From contig OY764159.1 in assembly GCA_963668175.1 (NCBI GenBank), positions 4,352,001 to 4,416,000 on the forward strand: 64,000 bases of DNA. Direction: 5' to 3'. Below are positions 27,034-32,212 of this stretch, one piece after another. The DNA comes from Syntrophales bacterium (GTDB taxonomy: Bacteria; Desulfobacterota; Syntrophia; Syntrophales; PHBD01). Position numbers and translations under genes: made by a program. The notes under the pieces are model-generated. The model was given only the letters and a program-made list of their open reading frames with translations. It ran no database searches and had not been told where the DNA came from. Position 1 is the stretch's first letter, and every line of letters starts with the position of its first letter.

Positions 27034-28641
27034 ATGAAGATTAAATTTCTAGGGGCAGCAAGAACCGTTACGGGTTCATGTTATCTTTTGGAAACCAAAG
27101 GACGCCGCTTTGCCATCGACTGCGGCATGCATCAAGGCAACGCCGAAATTGAGAAGCGCAATTGGGATACGGATATTTACGAGGCGGCGGAGATCGAATT
27201 TTTCCTGATAACGCATGCCCATATCGACCATTCCGGGCTATTGCCGAGAATCGTCCAGAAAGGATTCCGCGGTCCCATCTACACCACGCCGCCCACTATG
27301 GATCTCCTGAAAATCATGCTCCTGGACAGCGCCCATATCCAGGAGATGGAGGCCCAGTGGAAGAGCAAAAAGCAGCTTCGTCACGGCGGCAAGCAGATCA
27401 AGCCCCTCTATACCCAGAAAGACGCCGAAGCATCGGCGTCCCTCTTCAAGCCCATTGCCTACAATGCGCCCTTCGAACCGATCCCGGGGGTAACCATCAC
27501 ATTGCGGGATGCCGGCCATATTCTCGGCGCCGCCCTCATCGAAATCCGTTTCGAGGAAGACGGTGCTCCCAATAAACTTGTCTTTTCGGGGGACATCGGG
27601 CGTCCATCTCAGTTGATGATGGAAGACCCGTCGGTCGTCGAAGAAGCCGATTTTCTCTTCCTGGAATCGACGTACGGCAACCGCAACCATAAGAACGAAG
27701 CGGACAGCCTTGACGAACTCGCCCACGCGATCGACTACAGTTATACCCGGGGAGAGAAGGTCATCATCCCGGCCTTCGCCGTGGAAAGGACCCAGGAGAT
27801 GATCTATTCGCTCCATCTCCTTAACACGTCCGGTCGCCTGCCGAAGGATATGCCGGTCTACGTCGACAGTCCGCTGGCGATCCAGGCCACAGAGATATTC
27901 AATCGCTACCAGGCCTATTTTGACGAAGACGCCAAGACCCTTCTGAGGAAGGGCGACGATCCCCTGAAGCTGCCCCACCTGCACTACACGCTGACCACCC
28001 AGGAGTCGATGGCCATCAACACGACGGCCGGTCCCGCCGTCGTCATCTCGGCCAGCGGCATGGCCGACGCGGGGCGGATCAAGCACCATCTACGGCATAA
28101 TATATGGCGTGAAGGGGCAAGCATCGTCTTCGTCGGGTTCCAGGCCCAAGGCACCATGGGACGGAAGATCATCGACGGTGCGCAGAAAGTCAGGCTCTTT
28201 AACGAAGATGTCGCCGTTAAAGCCAGGATTTTTACGATCAACGGCTTTTCCGCCCATGCCGGTCAAAGCCAGATTCTCGACTGGCTCGGCCATTTCCGCA
28301 GGAACGGGATGAAGATTTTCCTGGTCCACGGAGAATATACGGCACAGCAAACCCTGGCTGAACTGATCAAGGAGCGCTTCGGTTTTGAGGTTGTCATCCC
28401 AGAGTATCTCGAAGAGACGGTCCTGAAAGCGGGCGAAGTGCTGCAGCCGGTGAAATATCCCGAGCAGGCCGCCCCCCGGATCGACTGGAATTTTCTCCTG
28501 GACGACCTGCAGGCCAAACTGTCCCGGCTGCGCGAGCGTCAGGCCAAGATCGAGGGCAAGCCCTGGGTGGAGCAGACCGATCTTCGCGACCGCGTTCTGG
28601 AGATCAGCCGCGGCATCACCGAACTTGTTACGGAGACTTGA
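27034..28641 (+). CDS. MBL-fold beta-CASP ribonuclease family protein
   Basis: 'GAARTVTGS', 'THAHIDHSG', 'AGHILG', 'SGDIG', 'ESTYG', 'FSAHA', 'LVHGE'. Confidence 0.94.
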   Translation: MKIKFLGAARTVTGSCYLLETKGRRFAIDCGMHQGNAEIEKRNWDTDIYEAAEIEFFLITHAHIDHSGLLPRIVQKGFRGPIYTTPPTMDLLKIMLLDSAHIQEMEAQWKSKKQLRHGGKQIKPLYTQKDAEASASLFKPIAYNAPFEPIPGVTITLRDAGHILGAALIEIRFEEDGAPNKLVFSGDIGRPSQLMMEDPSVVEEADFLFLESTYGNRNHKNEADSLDELAHAIDYSYTRGEKVIIPAFAVERTQEMIYSLHLLNTSGRLPKDMPVYVDSPLAIQATEIFNRYQAYFDEDAKTLLRKGDDPLKLPHLHYTLTTQESMAINTTAGPAVVISASGMADAGRIKHHLRHNIWREGASIVFVGFQAQGTMGRKIIDGAQKVRLFNEDVAVKARIFTINGFSAHAGQSQILDWLGHFRRNGMKIFLVHGEYTAQQTLAELIKERFGFEVVIPEYLEETVLKAGEVLQPVKYPEQAAPRIDWNFLLDDLQAKLSRLRERQAKIEGKPWVEQTDLRDRVLEISRGITELVTET

Positions 28642-28781
28642 TCTCCATCGCCGTACCGGAGGAGGACGCAATATCAACCGCGTCGGACATACTTCTTTCG
28701 ATTGCTATTTTCCATACTTCATAATATGATGAAGCCACTGGTATTACGGCCCTAATCGGTATCTTTCCCAGAGGTGATCTC

Positions 28782-29531
28782 ATGGCAAGGAACATCGCAT
28801 TTACGAACCAGAAGGGCGGCGTCGGCAAGACAACGGCCGCAGTGGGATTGGCATCCGGTTTAACGCTGAAGGGCAAGAAGGTTCTCCTTGTGGACCTCGA
28901 CGCCCAGGGAAATGCCTCTGCGGCCGCCGGTCTCATCATTGAGAACGAAGGCAAAACGATCAAGGATCTTTTTCTGGAAGGGAAAAGTGCCGCCGATTAC
29001 ATCACCAAGACCGGCATCGCGGACATCATCCCCTCCAACAATTCCCTGAAGGACATAGAAATTGAGATCATGAACGGGATGAAGTTCGACCTTCTCAAGA
29101 AGGCCATGAAACCCATCCGGGATACCTACGATTATGTCCTCCTCGACTGTCCGCCCAGCATCAATGTCTTCACCAAGAATGCACTCGCCTTGGCCGACGA
29201 GGTTATCATCCCCGTCGACATGGGATTCTTCTCCCTTCTCGGCTTAAAGCAGCTCCTGGAAGAGATCGTACGCATCAAGAGGGACATGAACCGGTCTCTT
29301 AAGCTGCGCGGCGTCCTGGTCTGCAAATTCGACCGGAGGACGGCCCTTTCCGACCAGGTCCTGGAAACGATGAAGACGAGTTTCCCGAACCAGTTGTTCA
29401 GGACCATGATCCGCGTCAACATCGATTTGGTCAAATCGCAAATCGCCCAGCAAAGCATCTTCGAATATAACCCCAGAAGCACAGGGGCAGAGGATTTTCT
29501 TGCACTAACGGAGGAAATAATCCATGGCTAG
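28782..29531 (+). CDS. parA: ParA/Soj family ATPase (orphan)
   Basis: Deviant Walker A 'NQKGGVGKTT', 'VDLDAQGNA', 'LDCPPS', 'DRRT'; no parB adjacent. Confidence 0.93.
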   Translation: MARNIAFTNQKGGVGKTTAAVGLASGLTLKGKKVLLVDLDAQGNASAAAGLIIENEGKTIKDLFLEGKSAADYITKTGIADIIPSNNSLKDIEIEIMNGMKFDLLKKAMKPIRDTYDYVLLDCPPSINVFTKNALALADEVIIPVDMGFFSLLGLKQLLEEIVRIKRDMNRSLKLRGVLVCKFDRRTALSDQVLETMKTSFPNQLFRTMIRVNIDLVKSQIAQQSIFEYNPRSTGAEDFLALTEEIIHG

Positions 29532-29964
29532 CAAGCGAAGCAAAGAGGATATTGCCGAAAGGTTAAGCGCCCTTAAGCCCAGCGTACCCACCAGCACCCG
29601 GGCCGTCAAGGCCAAAAAGCAGCCGGCCCCGAAGACCGTCAAGACGGCGAAGGCTGCGCCGCCTGTTGCAGCGGCGAAAAAGACTGCGGCACCGGCCAAG
29701 AAGCCTGTAGCGCCGGCCGAAAAACCTGCGGCCCCGAAAGCCGAACCAATCCGGCAGGATGCCCCGGAAAAAGCGGCGGCACCGGCGACCGCCAAGGCCG
29801 CGTTCCCCGGTGTCGAGGCCATGGGGACGCATATCGAAAAGTCTTTGCGTTTACCCTGGATGATGTTCGATGTCTGGCGGGGGGTTGCTCAGGCTTATTA
29901 CGGCATGGCGGAATCGCAGATGAAGTTCCTCGTCAATATGACGTCCTGGAGGATGAAGCTCTAG
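29524..29964 (+). CDS. hypothetical Ala/Lys/Pro-rich protein, putative ParA partner
   Basis: Overlaps the parA 3' end; GGAGG RBS inside parA; basic N-terminus, AKP-rich middle, hydrophobic aromatic C-terminal helix. Confidence 0.75.
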   Translation: MASKRSKEDIAERLSALKPSVPTSTRAVKAKKQPAPKTVKTAKAAPPVAAAKKTAAPAKKPVAPAEKPAAPKAEPIRQDAPEKAAAPATAKAAFPGVEAMGTHIEKSLRLPWMMFDVWRGVAQAYYGMAESQMKFLVNMTSWRMKL

Positions 29965-29983: not shown

Positions 29984-30436
29984 TCACACGTAATCGCCGC
30001 GGTTGAACTTAATCACTTCCACCGTCGAAGCGACCAGGAGCCGGTTCAGGACGTCCTTGAGGTTATCGCCCTCGGGGAGCGTGTCGAGAACGGGGATCAG
30101 GTTCTGCGTCTCTTCCTCCATCTTGCTGACGAGCGGTGAGACCTGTTTTAAGGTGACGGTCGAATCCTCCATCTGATTCTGATAGGATTCAAGGATATTC
30201 ATGAAGCGGTTGATCCGCTCGACTGTCGCGGCCCTGTCGCCCTGATCCGCCTTTTCCAAAGCTATCCTCGATATGCCGTCCAAGGGGGGCACAACGGAAG
30301 CCCTGTTGCCGGCAGCCGAAGATGCGTCCATAGCTTCCTTGAGAATGTTCCCGAAATTTTCATTCCTGGCGCCGGTCGCCTTTTTGGACGACAAGTCGCC
30401 GGCTACATCATGAATTTCCTTTGGTGTTATTTTCAT
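29984..30436 (-). CDS. hypothetical protein (helical, ends KFNRGDYV)
   Basis: 150 aa with AAGGAG RBS; 'MKI' start and flexible N-terminus; no family recognised with certainty. Confidence 0.75.
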   Translation of the reverse strand: MKITPKEIHDVAGDLSSKKATGARNENFGNILKEAMDASSAAGNRASVVPPLDGISRIALEKADQGDRAATVERINRFMNILESYQNQMEDSTVTLKQVSPLVSKMEEETQNLIPVLDTLPEGDNLKDVLNRLLVASTVEVIKFNRGDYV

Positions 30437-31720: not shown

Positions 31721-32212
31721 TTAGTGGGGTCTCATCGTTTTGACCAGGTTGGTCGTGATCAACCCGAAAAACCCCTCTTCTATGGATTGATAAAACCAGC
31801 CCATGTGAAGCATGCAGTTGGAACAGAGGCAAACGGACCAGGCGAACCCCGGAAACCAGGTGAACTCGAAGACGGGGGCGCCGTAAACCGCACATCCGCC
31901 GGCAGTGGAGAAACAGCCGATCTGGAAGGTAACGCCGGCCGGATTGGTAAACGTATGTTCATGCCGTCCGCTGACCGTCACGGCATATTCGGCCAGAGTT
32001 ATCTCCTGCCCGCACCGCCGGCAGAGAATGGGATGCCTCCCCTCCCTAAGACGGACATCATCCTCCTCCTCGGGGAGCACAGAAGCCGCCGGTTTGCCGG
32101 CCGTCTTCTTCAGAAGCTCAAACGGATGGGGACACAATAGATGGGGGTTAAAAAAACTCCCGGATATGCTTGGTATCCCGATAGGATGGCAGGCTTCCGT
32201 CTGTGTATTCAT
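31721..32212 (-). CDS. bacterial cereblon (CULT domain) protein
   Basis: Zn CxxC pairs 'CRRC' and 'CSNC'; 'FTNPAG..F.IGCF', 'EFTWFPGFAW', 'HMGWFY', 'FFGLI'. Confidence 0.92.
   Translation of the reverse strand: MNTQTEACHPIGIPSISGSFFNPHLLCPHPFELLKKTAGKPAASVLPEEEDDVRLREGRHPILCRRCGQEITLAEYAVTVSGRHEHTFTNPAGVTFQIGCFSTAGGCAVYGAPVFEFTWFPGFAWSVCLCSNCMLHMGWFYQSIEEGFFGLITTNLVKTMRPH

What the first reader, a model, noticed from the sequence alone, without database searches (positions are those of the whole stretch)
28782..29964. Orphan ParA coupled to a small tripartite AKP-rich protein: candidate cargo (granule/organelle) positioning system
Seen: a ParA/Soj ATPase with an intact deviant Walker A overlaps the start of a 146-aa ORF, with no parB and no parS-like palindrome noticed nearby. 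The partner has three parts: a basic N-terminal peptide (MASKRSKEDIAERL), a histone-H1-like Ala/Lys/Pro tract (AAAKKTAAPAKKPVAPAEKPAAPK), and an aromatic amphipathic C-terminal helix ending ...SWRMKL. Known: ParA/MinD ATPases position non-DNA cargo via small adaptors with basic N-termini (McdA/McdB for carboxysomes, where McdB has a C-terminal Trp; ParC/ParP; PomXYZ). AKP tracts tether PHA granules to the nucleoid in PhaF/PhaM. Inference: a two-gene module that positions a storage granule or protein assembly in an anaerobe. The cargo is not identifiable from this window.
Basis: partly seen in the sequence, partly recalled or inferred. Interest (0 to 1): 0.72.

Follow-up and report, generated by a model that had tools for sequence, protein, structure and literature searches.

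The report
Extra ParA with novel three-part adaptor
A second, non-chromosomal ParA positioning ATPase is always paired with a small unannotated protein built from a ParB-like docking peptide, a lysine/proline/alanine-rich tail and an aromatic helix, which looks like a new cargo-positioning pair whose cargo is still unknown.

Summary
ParA (28782-29531, KGGVGKT) overlaps by 8 nt a 146-aa ORF (29524-29964) that matches no Pfam, NCBIfam, PHROGs or PDB entry. The genome's only ParB and its canonical ParA lie about 3.8 Mb away, so this ParA is an extra copy (40% identical to the chromosomal one).

The pair is real and conserved. In a sample of 201 genomes of the order (named relatives are Syntrophales), 25 carry this ParA clade, and 25 of 25 have the partner directly downstream. 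Flanking genes differ between genera, so this is a self-contained two-gene module.

All partners share three parts:
- an invariant N-terminal peptide with the hydrophobic spacing of ParB's ParA-binding motif;
- a disordered linker with net charge +2 to +22;
- an aromatic-rich C-terminal region, modelled by AlphaFold2 as one long helix in the two partners folded, with Trp in the last 6 residues in 22 of 25.

The ParA clade carries Lys in the ParB-peptide pocket. It also carries Asp where R238E abolishes DNA binding in M. xanthus ParA.

Best reading: a ParA plus ATPase-activating adaptor, built like PomX or McdB. The cargo is unidentified. PHA synthase is present in 25 of 25 carriers, but also in 84 of 176 non-carriers. 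BMC shell genes were not found in this genome. I rate it a new variant of a known kind, of moderate interest.

The parts
28702..28730 (+). sigma-70-like promoter (TTGCTA, 17 nt, TATGAT) for the two-gene operon
   Evidence: Consensus scan. The block ...TTGCTATTTT...CTTCATAWTATGAT is conserved in the two closest relatives L003 and L014. Function is inferred.
28771..28778 (+). Shine-Dalgarno-like GAGGTGAT before parA
   Evidence: Read from the sequence.
28782..29531 (+). extra (non-chromosomal) ParA/Soj-type ATPase, 249 aa
   Evidence: Pfam AAA_31 E 2e-53. Best solved relative is 8RAY, M. xanthus ParA, E 9e-47. 40% identical to the genome's own chromosomal ParA. The clade is 63-84% identical across the 25 genomes and locus L014.
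28812..28832 (+). deviant Walker A, KGGVGKT (residues 11-17)
   Evidence: Sequence; invariant in alignment A3.
29175..29177 (+). Lys132, at the pocket position that is Leu155 in M. xanthus ParA and Leu in the own chromosomal ParA
   Evidence: Mapped through the 8RAY alignment (chain offset +19 taken from D60A = A41). K in 12 of 12 clade ParAs aligned, L in the chromosomal ParA. The pocket residues are named in PMC12462528 (passages).
29424..29426 (+). Asp215, at the position of Arg238 of M. xanthus ParA (TtSoj R211, BsSoj R218)
   Evidence: Alignment to 8RAY and 1WCV. D in 12 of 12 clade ParAs aligned, R in the chromosomal ParA. R238E lacks non-specific DNA binding (bioRxiv 10.1101/2025.03.14.642875, passages). 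Basic patch residues from PMC6393308 (passages).
29510..29515 (+). Shine-Dalgarno GGAGGA for the partner, inside the end of parA
   Evidence: Sequence.
29524..29964 (+). partner ORF, 146 aa, unannotated family; start overlaps the parA stop by 8 nt
   Evidence: 7 relatives among 5.8 billion clusters; 8 representatives among 1.84 billion. Follows the ParA in 25 of 25 clade genomes.
29524..29601 (+). N-terminal docking peptide (residues 1-26), M-x-K-[KR]..[DE][IL]x[ED][KR]L[SN]AL.P..PT.TR; predicted short helix at residues 5-15
   Evidence: Invariant columns in A2 and in the 25 partners. AF2 helix 5-15 in the window protein and 6-15 in a g7 partner. It is the only instance of the motif in the genome.
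29602..29814 (+). disordered Ala/Lys/Pro-rich polycationic linker (about residues 27-97) with 21-nt (7-aa) repeats
   Evidence: A 35%, K 20%, P 18%, net charge +11. pLDDT about 50 with no secondary structure. 21-nt direct repeats at 29661-29736. Linker net charge is +2 to +22 in all 25 partners.
29815..29961 (+). aromatic-rich C-terminal helix (residues 98-146) ending SWRMKL
   Evidence: AF2 gives a single helix 98-145, with 10-residue block means of pLDDT 91-96 over residues 111-140. A g7 partner has the same build (helix 86-127). 7 aromatic residues in the last 50. Helical hydrophobic moment 0.4-0.58 over residues about 99-119.

Best explanation
This is a lineage-specific, self-contained ParA positioning module. 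It consists of a duplicated chromosomal-type ParA and a newly evolved ATPase-activating adaptor, translated from one operon.

Proposed mechanism:
1. The ATP-bound ParA dimer presents the hydrophobic cleft at its dimer edge that chromosomal ParA uses for ParB's N-terminal peptide.
2. The adaptor's invariant N-terminal helix (residues about 5-18) docks there and stimulates ATP hydrolysis. It has hydrophobic residues at i, i+4 and i+7, as in ParB. The charge pattern is changed: acidic at i+2 and basic at i+3 in the peptide, and Leu to Lys at pocket position 132 in ParA. That change would insulate the pair from the cell's own ParB and ParA.
3. The polycationic A/K/P-rich disordered linker acts as a long flexible tether that can also bind a polyanion (nucleoid DNA, or polyphosphate).
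4. The aromatic C-terminal helix, with its near-terminal Trp, binds the cargo and/or self-associates.

ATP-driven cycling of ParA would then space or segregate whatever the C-terminal helix holds.

Shown: gene anatomy, strict co-conservation of the pair, the domain layout, the residue substitutions, and the absence of ParB, parS and known DNA-binding folds. Inferred: docking, ATPase stimulation, polyanion binding, cargo binding, and the identity of the cargo (unknown).
For: ParA identity and its closeness to chromosomal ParA. It is an extra copy: the canonical parAB is at 563 kb and is the only ParB_N match in the genome.

Co-conservation: the ParA clade is in 25 of 201 sampled genomes of the order (f1 8/8, f4 1/1, f5 13/19, f14 2/10). 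The partner has the N-terminal motif and starts at the same overlapping position in 25 of 25. It was also seen in 2 metagenome loci and 2 named Syntrophales MAG contigs. Nothing this close turned up in a 401-genome sample of the phylum at E <= 1e-70.

Flanks differ between genera, so only the pair is conserved. The ParA evolves slowly (63-84% identity) and the partner fast (23-61%). The same pattern is described for PomZ versus PomX (PMC7993993, passages).

N-peptide: invariant columns. Its hydrophobic spacing i, i+4, i+7 matches ParB L11, L15, L18 (PMC12462528, passages) and the own ParB's SLGKGLGAIFP. The pocket substitution K132 is clade-wide.

Architecture: AF2 gives a short N-helix, a disordered linker and one confident long C-terminal helix in two distant members. 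The linker is net positive in 25 of 25 and the C-terminal region is aromatic-rich in 25 of 25. Native composition: GC3 0.73 and 0.71 versus 0.72 for the neighbouring gene.
Against: No binding or ATPase stimulation has been shown, and the cargo is unknown. No conserved neighbour points to a cargo. The likeness to the ParB motif is a pattern match over about 10 residues, with the key positive residue shifted by one position, and it was not tested statistically.

The canonical DNA-binding Arg is Asp in this clade and a second patch Arg is Val. ParA may therefore not use the nucleoid as its matrix in the usual way, although neighbouring positions gained basic residues (R211, K218).

The C-terminal regions of the three subfamilies are only weakly related by profile-profile comparison (E 0.0038-0.17, probability under 10%). 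One common cargo is therefore not assured. Heptad periodicity is no better than shuffles in most members: in 21 of 25, at least 25 of 500 shuffles reach the observed score. Self-association through a coiled coil is thus unsupported.
Confidence: 0.6

Rival explanations
1. Storage-granule positioning. The C-terminal aromatic helix binds PHA granules, or the polycationic tract binds polyphosphate granules. The same adaptor links them to ParA, giving an ATP-driven version of the PhaF/PhaM/AlgP nucleoid tethers.
For: The linker has histone-H1-like A/K/P composition. PhaM, PhaF and AlgP use histone-like domains to tether PHB or polyP granules to the nucleoid. The 2025 review lists ATP dependence and the spacing component of those systems as unknown (PMC13052382, passages). 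PhaC_N matches occur in 25 of 25 module-carrying genomes. Five carriers that had only weak PhaC_N matches have class III PhaC above the curated cut-off (5 of 5). The own genome has PhaC at 0.91 Mb and 3.79 Mb.
Against: PhaC_N is also found in 84 of 176 non-carriers, including whole families without the module (f11 16/18, f19 11/11). One 100%-complete g7 genome (G154) has PhaC but not the module. No pha or ppk gene lies next to the pair in any genus. No phasin or other family matched the partner, even at E up to 10. Related genomes are not independent, so 25 of 25 is weak evidence.
Confidence: 0.17
2. A PomX-like self-organising scaffold. The adaptor itself assembles into a nucleoid-associated cluster, through its C-terminal helix together with polycation-DNA interaction. 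ParA positions that cluster to mark a cell site such as the division plane.
For: The modular build matches PomX: a conserved charged N-peptide that activates the ATPase, an Ala/Pro-rich unstructured region and a C-terminal helical self-interaction domain (PMC7993993, passages). MinE was not found in this genome. MinC was found only in one family (f21, 7 of 7) of 201 sampled genomes. An M23 peptidase gene lies directly upstream on the same strand in 4 of the 9 g7 loci read (family checked for two of them).
Against: The partner is about a third of PomX's size, and a PomY equivalent was not looked for. The profile search returned only proteins of 181 aa or fewer and no PomX-sized relative. Min is missing from nearly the whole order, so its absence is not linked to the module. 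Heptad periodicity is not significant. The M23 neighbour is not conserved outside part of g7.
Confidence: 0.12
3. A DNA-directed system. The adaptor binds DNA non-specifically through its H1-like tract (or specifically through a site I did not see), and the pair helps to segregate or organise the chromosome alongside ParABS.
For: The ParA descends from chromosomal ParA. The linker is strongly cationic. The adaptor peptide resembles ParB's.
Against: No HTH, RHH or ParB fold was found: AF2 gives only helices and disorder, and Pfam, NCBIfam and PDB gave no hits. There is no iterated repeat or parS near the operon. The upstream conserved block reads as a promoter. The locus is core chromosome rather than a plasmid or island (synteny with L041; GC3).
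Confidence: 0.08
4. Not a positioning system. The small protein is a regulator or decoy that titrates this ParA or the chromosomal ParA, or the ParA serves as an assembly chaperone for another machine.
For: The ParB-like peptide could in principle contact the chromosomal ParA. The genome holds several other ParA/MinD-type ATPases with non-positioning roles.
Against: The strict 1:1 translational coupling and the clade-specific pocket change (K132) argue for a dedicated pair. The flagellar export gene flhA was not found in one 97%-complete carrier (G003) and is common in non-carriers.
Confidence: 0.03

Closest known systems
Chromosomal ParABS (Soj/Spo0J; M. xanthus ParA-ParB, PDB 8RAY; T. thermophilus Soj 1WCV)
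   Same: The ATPase is of this type: best PDB match E 9e-47, and 40% identity to the own chromosomal ParA. The adaptor's N-terminal peptide keeps ParB's hydrophobic spacing i, i+4, i+7.
   Different: There is no ParB domain and no parS. The adaptor is a 146-aa protein of no known family. Pocket Leu155 is Lys here, and the DNA-binding Arg238 is Asp. In the peptide, the positive residue is moved by one position and the i+8 hydrophobic residue is lost.
PomXYZ of Myxococcus xanthus (PomZ ParA-like ATPase; PomX activating scaffold)
   Same: The adaptor has the same layout: a conserved charged N-terminal peptide, an Ala/Pro-rich unstructured region and a C-terminal helical domain. The ATPase is conserved and the adaptor divergent (PMC7993993, passages).
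   Different: 146 aa against 404 aa. The linker is also Lys-rich. No second activator (PomY) is known for it. No sequence relationship was detected. No link to division is shown.
McdAB carboxysome positioning (McdA/McdB)
   Same: A two-gene ParA plus small, largely disordered adaptor. The adaptor has a basic N-terminus and Trp near the C-terminal end (22 of 25 partners have Trp in the last 6 residues; McdB features from PMC11321042, passages).
   Different: No BMC shell gene was found in this genome. The Trp is flanked by Arg/Lys rather than the acidic residues or the R(V/I)WPD motif of McdB. The ParA is far closer to chromosomal ParA than to McdA (6NON, E 6e-14).
PhaF / PhaM / AlgP histone-H1-like granule tethers
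   Same: An A/K/P-rich polycationic tract is joined to a helical amphipathic segment (PMC13052382, passages).
   Different: Those proteins work without a ParA and carry phasin or other granule-binding domains. Here no phasin family matches, the order of modules differs, and no pha or polyP genes are adjacent.
Type Ib plasmid partition (ParF-ParG of TP228 and relatives)
   Same: A small ParA-type ATPase, followed by a small adaptor whose flexible N-terminal tail activates the ATPase.
   Different: ParG has a ribbon-helix-helix DNA-binding domain and iterated centromere repeats upstream. Neither was found here. The ATPase is Soj-like and only distantly matches ParF (4DZZ, E 2.6e-11).

Membership tests
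ParA/MinD deviant Walker A ATPases | Deviant Walker A KGGxxK[ST] with the signature lysine | tested here: met
   KGGVGKT at residues 11-17, invariant in 13 of 13 aligned sequences; AAA_31 E 2e-53.
ParA/MinD deviant Walker A ATPases | Walker A' and Walker B aspartates | tested here: met
   D38/D40 (LLVDLDAQGN) and D122 (LLDCPPS) are invariant in A3 and aligned to 8RAY and 1WCV.
Chromosomal ParABS | Adjacent ParB with a ParB_N/Srx CTPase domain | tested here: not met
   The single ParB_N match in the genome is at 563 kb, next to the other ParA.
Chromosomal ParABS | parS centromere | tested here: not met
Chromosomal ParABS | Conserved DNA-binding arginine (Mx R238, Bs R218, Tt R211) | tested here: not met
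   Asp215 in the window and in 12 of 12 clade members aligned; Arg in the own chromosomal ParA.
McdAB | Invariant Trp in the C-terminal motif of McdB, with nearby acidic residues (alpha type: R(V/I)WPD) | tested here: inconclusive
   Trp lies in the last 6 residues in 22 of 25 partners, but it is flanked by R/K (WRMKL, WGRF, WPGGR) and not by D/E. The criteria come from PMC11321042 (passages).
McdAB | Carboxysome or other BMC shell genes in the genome | tested here: not met
   PF00936 has no match in the complete genome; the control genomes E. coli and S. elongatus were detected.
PomXYZ | PomX-type adaptor: N-peptide, A/P-rich disordered region and a self-polymerising C-terminal coiled coil | tested here: inconclusive
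   The layout is analogous. Heptad periodicity is not above shuffles in most members. Polymerisation cannot be tested here. No sequence relatives longer than 181 aa were found.
PomXYZ | A second activator (PomY) and a link to FtsZ | not tested
   No PomY sequence was at hand. No conserved third gene lies next to the pair.
Type Ib ParA + RHH centromere-binding protein (ParFG-like) | Ribbon-helix-helix DNA-binding domain in the adaptor | tested here: not met
   AF2 predicts no strand, only a continuous helix. There is no RHH family hit at E up to 10 and no PDB profile hit. These are monomer models only.
Type Ib ParA + RHH centromere-binding protein (ParFG-like) | Iterated centromere or operator repeats upstream of parA | tested here: not met
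   No intergenic repeat family was found. The conserved upstream block fits a promoter.
PhaF/PhaM/AlgP-type H1-like tethers | Histone-H1-like A/K/P repeat tract | tested here: met
   Met by composition only: A 35%, K 20%, P 18%, net charge +11, with 7-aa repeats.
PhaF/PhaM/AlgP-type H1-like tethers | Phasin or granule-binding domain, or a pha-locus context | tested here: not met
   No phasin or other Pfam match. PhaC genes lie at 0.91 and 3.79 Mb, against 4.38 Mb for the module.

The most novel reading that the evidence does not exclude
The pair is the energy-consuming spacing machine that reviews of bacterial organelle positioning list as missing for storage granules. A ParA ATPase would work with a single adaptor that fuses a ParB-like activation peptide, a histone-H1-like polyanion-binding tether and a granule-binding aromatic helix, so that PHA or polyphosphate granules are actively equi-positioned in Syntrophales. 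A bolder variant: because the ATPase has Asp at its canonical DNA-binding arginine, contact with the nucleoid has been handed from the ATPase to the adaptor's H1-like tract, which would invert the usual division of labour in ParA systems.
Probability: 0.15. Interest if true: 0.85.

Novelty: new variant of a known kind. Interest (0 to 1): 0.55.

Why it matters
ParA/MinD ATPases are the general positioning engines of bacteria, yet only a handful of adaptor types and cargos are known (ParB, MinE, McdB, PomX/Y, ParP/TlpT). This module adds an adaptor family with no detectable relatives outside a few Syntrophales lineages.

It shows in a compact form how such adaptors may be built: a ParB-like docking peptide grafted onto a disordered polycation and a short aromatic helix. 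The matched changes in the peptide and in the ParA pocket (Leu to Lys) offer a natural experiment on how paralogous ParA systems avoid cross-talk. The Asp at the DNA-binding arginine raises the question of what this ATPase uses as its matrix.

If the cargo proves to be a PHA or polyphosphate granule, it would answer an open question stated in a 2025 review: whether positioning of those granules needs energy.

Tried and rejected
1. Complex prediction of a ParA dimer with ATP/Mg and partner residues 1-40 gave no verdict (score 0.01, mark 0.32). It is evidence neither for nor against binding.
2. ESM Atlas look-ups of the whole partner and of its C-terminal 54 residues gave no usable hit.
3. The partner had no hits in Pfam at E up to 10 on the isolated N- and C-terminal parts (only chance-level Tom22 and TTI1 rows), nor in NCBIfam, PHROGs or a PDB sequence profile.
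4. RHH (ParG-like) idea for the C-terminal region: I raised it from the sequence pattern xLRLPxxxF and rejected it because AF2 gives one continuous helix in two subfamilies.
5. Coiled-coil idea: I thought I saw a/d heptads in the g7 helix by eye. The shuffle test does not support it. In only 4 of 25 partners do fewer than 25 of 500 shuffles reach the observed score.
6. Upstream palindrome CTTCATAATATGATGAAG as a centromere or operator: it coincides with the conserved -10 region of a promoter and is not repeated.
7. Other clients of the docking peptide, or paralogues of the C-terminal helix, in the same genome: none found.
8. Cargo by co-occurrence:
   - BMC shell genes: no match in this genome.
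   - PhaC: compatible but not specific.
   - MinC: found in one family only, so there is no anticorrelation.
   - FlhA: widespread, and not found in one near-complete carrier.
   - CheW: present with 12 matches in the own genome, not pursued.
9. The genome-contig scan with the partner profile found nothing.
10. Expression: only one RNA run held a 0.05 share of the sampled words. I did not lay it, so it is no evidence.
11. Structural library searches were not run. The models consist of one helix plus disorder (mean pLDDT 62-65), which gives meaningless fold matches.
12. My neighbourhood comparison used a crude longest-ORF caller that sometimes picked antisense ORFs over parA. Only the qualitative result is used: flanks are shared between the window and L041 and not with the other genera.
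Full report
WHAT IS THERE.

The window holds a 249-aa ParA/Soj-type ATPase (28782-29531, +) with an intact deviant Walker A, KGGVGKT (Pfam AAA_31 E 2e-53). A 146-aa ORF (29524-29964, +) starts at an ATG that overlaps the ParA stop codon by 8 nt (ATGGCTAG). It has its own GGAGGA 8 nt upstream of that ATG.

A sigma-70-like promoter (TTGCTA, 17 nt, TATGAT; 28702-28730) precedes parA and is conserved in the two closest relatives. Downstream, a convergent gene ends 20 nt after the partner. The two genes therefore look like a two-gene operon; co-transcription is inferred, not shown.

The genome is one 4.57-Mb contig. Its only ParB_N match and a canonical ParA lie at 563-564 kb, whereas the window is at 4.352-4.416 Mb. 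The only parS-like site within 2 mismatches is at 516 kb. So the ParA of the finding is an extra copy without ParB or parS, 40% identical to the chromosomal ParA. GC3 of both genes (0.73, 0.71) equals that of the neighbouring gene (0.72), and the flanks are core genes (cobalamin synthesis, a beta-CASP RNase, glnD/glnB). This is native chromosome, not a mobile element.

IS THE PARTNER REAL, AND IS THE PAIR CONSERVED?

The partner matches nothing in Pfam, NCBIfam, PHROGs or a PDB sequence profile. Relatives are few: 7 among 5.8 billion clusters and 8 representatives among 1.84 billion. Within its lineage, however, it is strictly conserved.

- Searching 201 sampled genomes of the same order with the ParA at E <= 1e-70 finds one copy in each of 25 genomes: f1 8/8, f4 1/1, f5 13/19 (genus g7 13/15) and f14 2/10.
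- A 401-genome sample of the phylum finds none besides the own genome. Only 14 of those genomes were from the order, and none was from a carrier family.
- In 25 of 25 loci the gene directly after this ParA encodes a protein with the same N-terminal motif. In all 23 loci that hold the full 1,500-nt upstream flank it starts at the same locus position as in the window, so its start overlaps the ParA stop.
- The partner profile alone had detected only 20 of these. The other five (genus g2) have longer, more diverged partners.
- The same pair is on two metagenome contigs and on two named MAG contigs titled uncultured Syntrophaceae and Syntrophales bacterium. That places the lineage in the Syntrophales.

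Beyond the pair, gene order is shared only between the window and its closest relative (L041). The other genera have different flanks (made with a crude ORF caller). The module is therefore self-contained, and no neighbouring gene points to a cargo.

ANATOMY OF THE PARTNER.

All 25 partners have three parts.

1. An N-terminal peptide of about 25 residues with invariant columns: M1, L14, A16, L17, P19, P22, T23, T25 and R26 in alignment A2. The consensus is MAKK...DIMEKLSALKPSxPTxTR. AlphaFold2 makes a short helix of residues 5-15 (window protein) or 6-15 (a g7 member).
2. A disordered linker of 42-171 residues, rich in Ala, Lys and Pro in the window's protein and most others. The window has A 35%, K 20% and P 18%, with 21-nt (7-aa) repeats. 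Net charge is +2 to +22 in every member.
3. A C-terminal region of about 50 residues with 5-11 aromatic residues. In two distant members it is predicted as one long helix, with 10-residue block means of pLDDT 91-96 over residues 111-140 of the window protein. Trp lies within the last 6 residues in 22 of 25.

The helix is moderately amphipathic over residues about 99-119, with a hydrophobic moment of 0.4-0.58. A heptad test against shuffles is not significant in most members, so I do not call it a coiled coil.

The C-terminal regions of the three main subfamilies are only weakly related by profile-profile comparison: E 0.0056, 0.17 and 0.0038, all with probability under 10%. Two of the three alignments put the same short core, hydrophobic-hydrophobic-[DE]-x-W, in register (MFDVW with YESW; MFDVW with WFDGW). 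The third aligns the preceding stretch and places YESW against FDGW, one position out of that register. Common descent of this part is plausible but not shown.

THE DOCKING PEPTIDE AND THE ParA POCKET.

The best solved relative of the ATPase is M. xanthus chromosomal ParA (8RAY, E 9e-47), well ahead of McdA (6NON, 6e-14) and ParF (4DZZ, 2.6e-11). For that ParA, the paper that reports 8RAY shows the following (bioRxiv 10.1101/2025.03.14.642875 and PMC12462528; passages only):

- ParB's N-terminal motif binds a hydrophobic cleft at the dimer edge.
- ParB L11, L15, L18 and I19 and ParA V116, L150, L152, L155, L187 and L192 were each tested by substitution with serine. Every ParB change abolished ParA binding, and single ParA changes markedly reduced it.
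- A positive residue (R13) sits between the hydrophobic ones.

The own ParB has exactly this pattern (SLGKGLGAIFP). The partner keeps hydrophobic residues at i, i+4 and i+7 (I10, L14, L17). It has K/R/N/Q at i+8, an acidic or polar residue at i+2 and an invariant K/R at i+3.

I mapped the pocket through the 8RAY alignment. The chain offset is +19, fixed by D60A = A41.

| M. xanthus ParA | This ParA | Note |
|---|---|---|
| V116 | I94 | variable in the clade |
| L150 | I127 | I or F |
| L152 | V129 | - |
| L155 | K132 | K in 12 of 12 clade members aligned; L in the own chromosomal ParA |
| L187 | R164 | variable |
| L192 | M169 | M or L |

 My inference is that the peptide docks as ParB's does. 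The paired charge changes, Lys in the pocket and Glu/Asp at i+2 of the peptide, would keep this pair separate from ParAB. This is a pattern argument. The one complex prediction I could run gave no verdict and is not evidence either way.

THE DNA-BINDING PATCH.

The basic patch of Soj-type ParAs is TtSoj R182/R194/R208/R211, which is BsSoj R189/K201/R215/R218 (PMC6393308, passages). M. xanthus R238E lacks non-specific DNA binding.

In this ParA the four positions are R186, K198, V212 and D215. The motif IPRNVRLSE of chromosomal ParAs reads IRVN(I/V)D(L/I)VK here. D215 is present in all 12 clade members aligned. Two neighbouring positions are basic instead (R211, K218). Sequence alone therefore cannot say whether nucleoid binding is lost, weakened or re-wired. 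Set beside the polycationic linker of the partner, this is the most unusual feature of the system.

WHAT COULD THE CARGO BE?

- No BMC shell gene was found in this genome.
- PHA synthase is present. PhaC_N matches occur at 0.91 and 3.79 Mb and in 25 of 25 carriers. Five carriers with only weak PhaC_N matches have class III PhaC above the curated cut-off.
- But PhaC_N is also in 84 of 176 non-carriers, and related genomes are not independent.
- MinE was not found in the genome. MinC is found only in one family of the order (7 of 201), so the lack of Min is not linked to the module.
- FlhA is widespread (112 of 201) and was not found in one 97%-complete carrier.
- The docking motif occurs nowhere else in the genome, and the C-terminal helix has no paralogue.

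The cargo is therefore open.

COMPARISON WITH KNOWN SYSTEMS.

By descent the ATPase is a chromosomal-type ParA. By architecture the adaptor is closest to PomX, which has a conserved charged N-peptide at residues 1-22, an Ala/Pro-rich unstructured region and a C-terminal helical self-interaction domain. As here, PomZ is conserved and PomX divergent (PMC7993993, passages). It also resembles McdB: small, largely disordered, with a basic N-terminus and an invariant C-terminal Trp (PMC11321042, passages). It is a member of neither family, because defining features were tested and not met or were inconclusive (see the membership table).

The A/K/P tract resembles the histone-like DNA-binding domains of PhaM, PhaF and AlgP, which tether PHB or polyphosphate granules to the nucleoid without any ParA. 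A 2025 review lists ATP dependence and the spacing factor of those systems as unknown, and speculates about a carboxysome-like mechanism (PMC13052382, passages).

I did not find this pair described. I therefore make no claim about print beyond that.

Earlier notes of this scan list several other orphan ParA plus small-adaptor pairs in other genomes. Such modules are recurrent, which tempers the surprise.

VERDICT.

The interpretation as a cargo-positioning ParA/adaptor pair is the best-supported reading (about 0.6). The specific storage-granule cargo is possible but unproven (about 0.15-0.2). It is a new variant of a known kind: a new adaptor family, a re-tuned ParB-type docking interface, and a ParA with Asp at the canonical DNA-binding arginine. 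Interest is moderate (0.55).

Noticed in passing
window 29984-30436 (-): A 150-aa protein (MKITPKEI...VIKFNRGDYV) lies convergent to the pair. It is conserved at the same place in L003, L014 and L041 but not in the other genera. It has no Pfam, NCBIfam or PHROGs match.
   Followed up: partly
window 27034-28641 (+): A beta-CASP / metallo-beta-lactamase RNase sits directly upstream. Its best NCBIfam row is the type VII CRISPR Cas14 model at 412 bits, far below that model's 800-bit cut-off, so it is an ordinary beta-CASP RNase rather than Cas14. The gene is syntenic in the closest relatives.
   Followed up: no
window 29661-29736: The linker coding region holds three 21-nt direct repeats (7-aa units of the type AAPAKKPV). 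This suggests that linker length changes by repeat expansion. Linker length ranges from 42 to 171 residues among relatives.
   Followed up: partly
window 31721-32212 (-): A 163-aa Cys-rich protein with a weak Yippee/Mis18-like zinc-binding match (E 0.008, below cut-off). It is unannotated otherwise.
   Followed up: no
L004, L005, L009, L010 (genus g7), directly upstream of parA on the same strand: A Peptidase_M23 gene precedes the module in 4 of the 9 g7 loci read. The family was checked for L009 and L010 (E 7e-32 and 2e-35). It is not present in the other g7 loci or in other genera.
   Followed up: partly
order-wide sample (G001-G200): MinC_C was found in only one family of the order (f21, 7 of 7) among 201 sampled genomes, and MinE was not found in this genome. 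Most Syntrophales sampled appear to lack a Min system.
   Followed up: partly
G000:C1 about 320 kb, 3.968 Mb, 4.162 Mb, 4.534 Mb, 1.212 Mb: Other ParA/MinD-type ATPases of the genome: an AAA_31 match (305-aa ORF) that lies between flhF and fliA and was not itself scanned; a MinD-like one beside a GGDEF cyclase; a second MinD-like one beside a SagB-type dehydrogenase; an XrtA-associated tyrosine autokinase; and an ArsA/Get3-type ATPase.
   Followed up: partly
L038 (G003, genus g6): The partner in this small (1.8-Mb) genome keeps the docking peptide (KLGALKTNTPTKTR) but ends in an acidic tail (net charge -5 in the last 50 residues) with no Trp among its last 6 residues. This may be a case of C-terminal domain replacement.
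   Followed up: no
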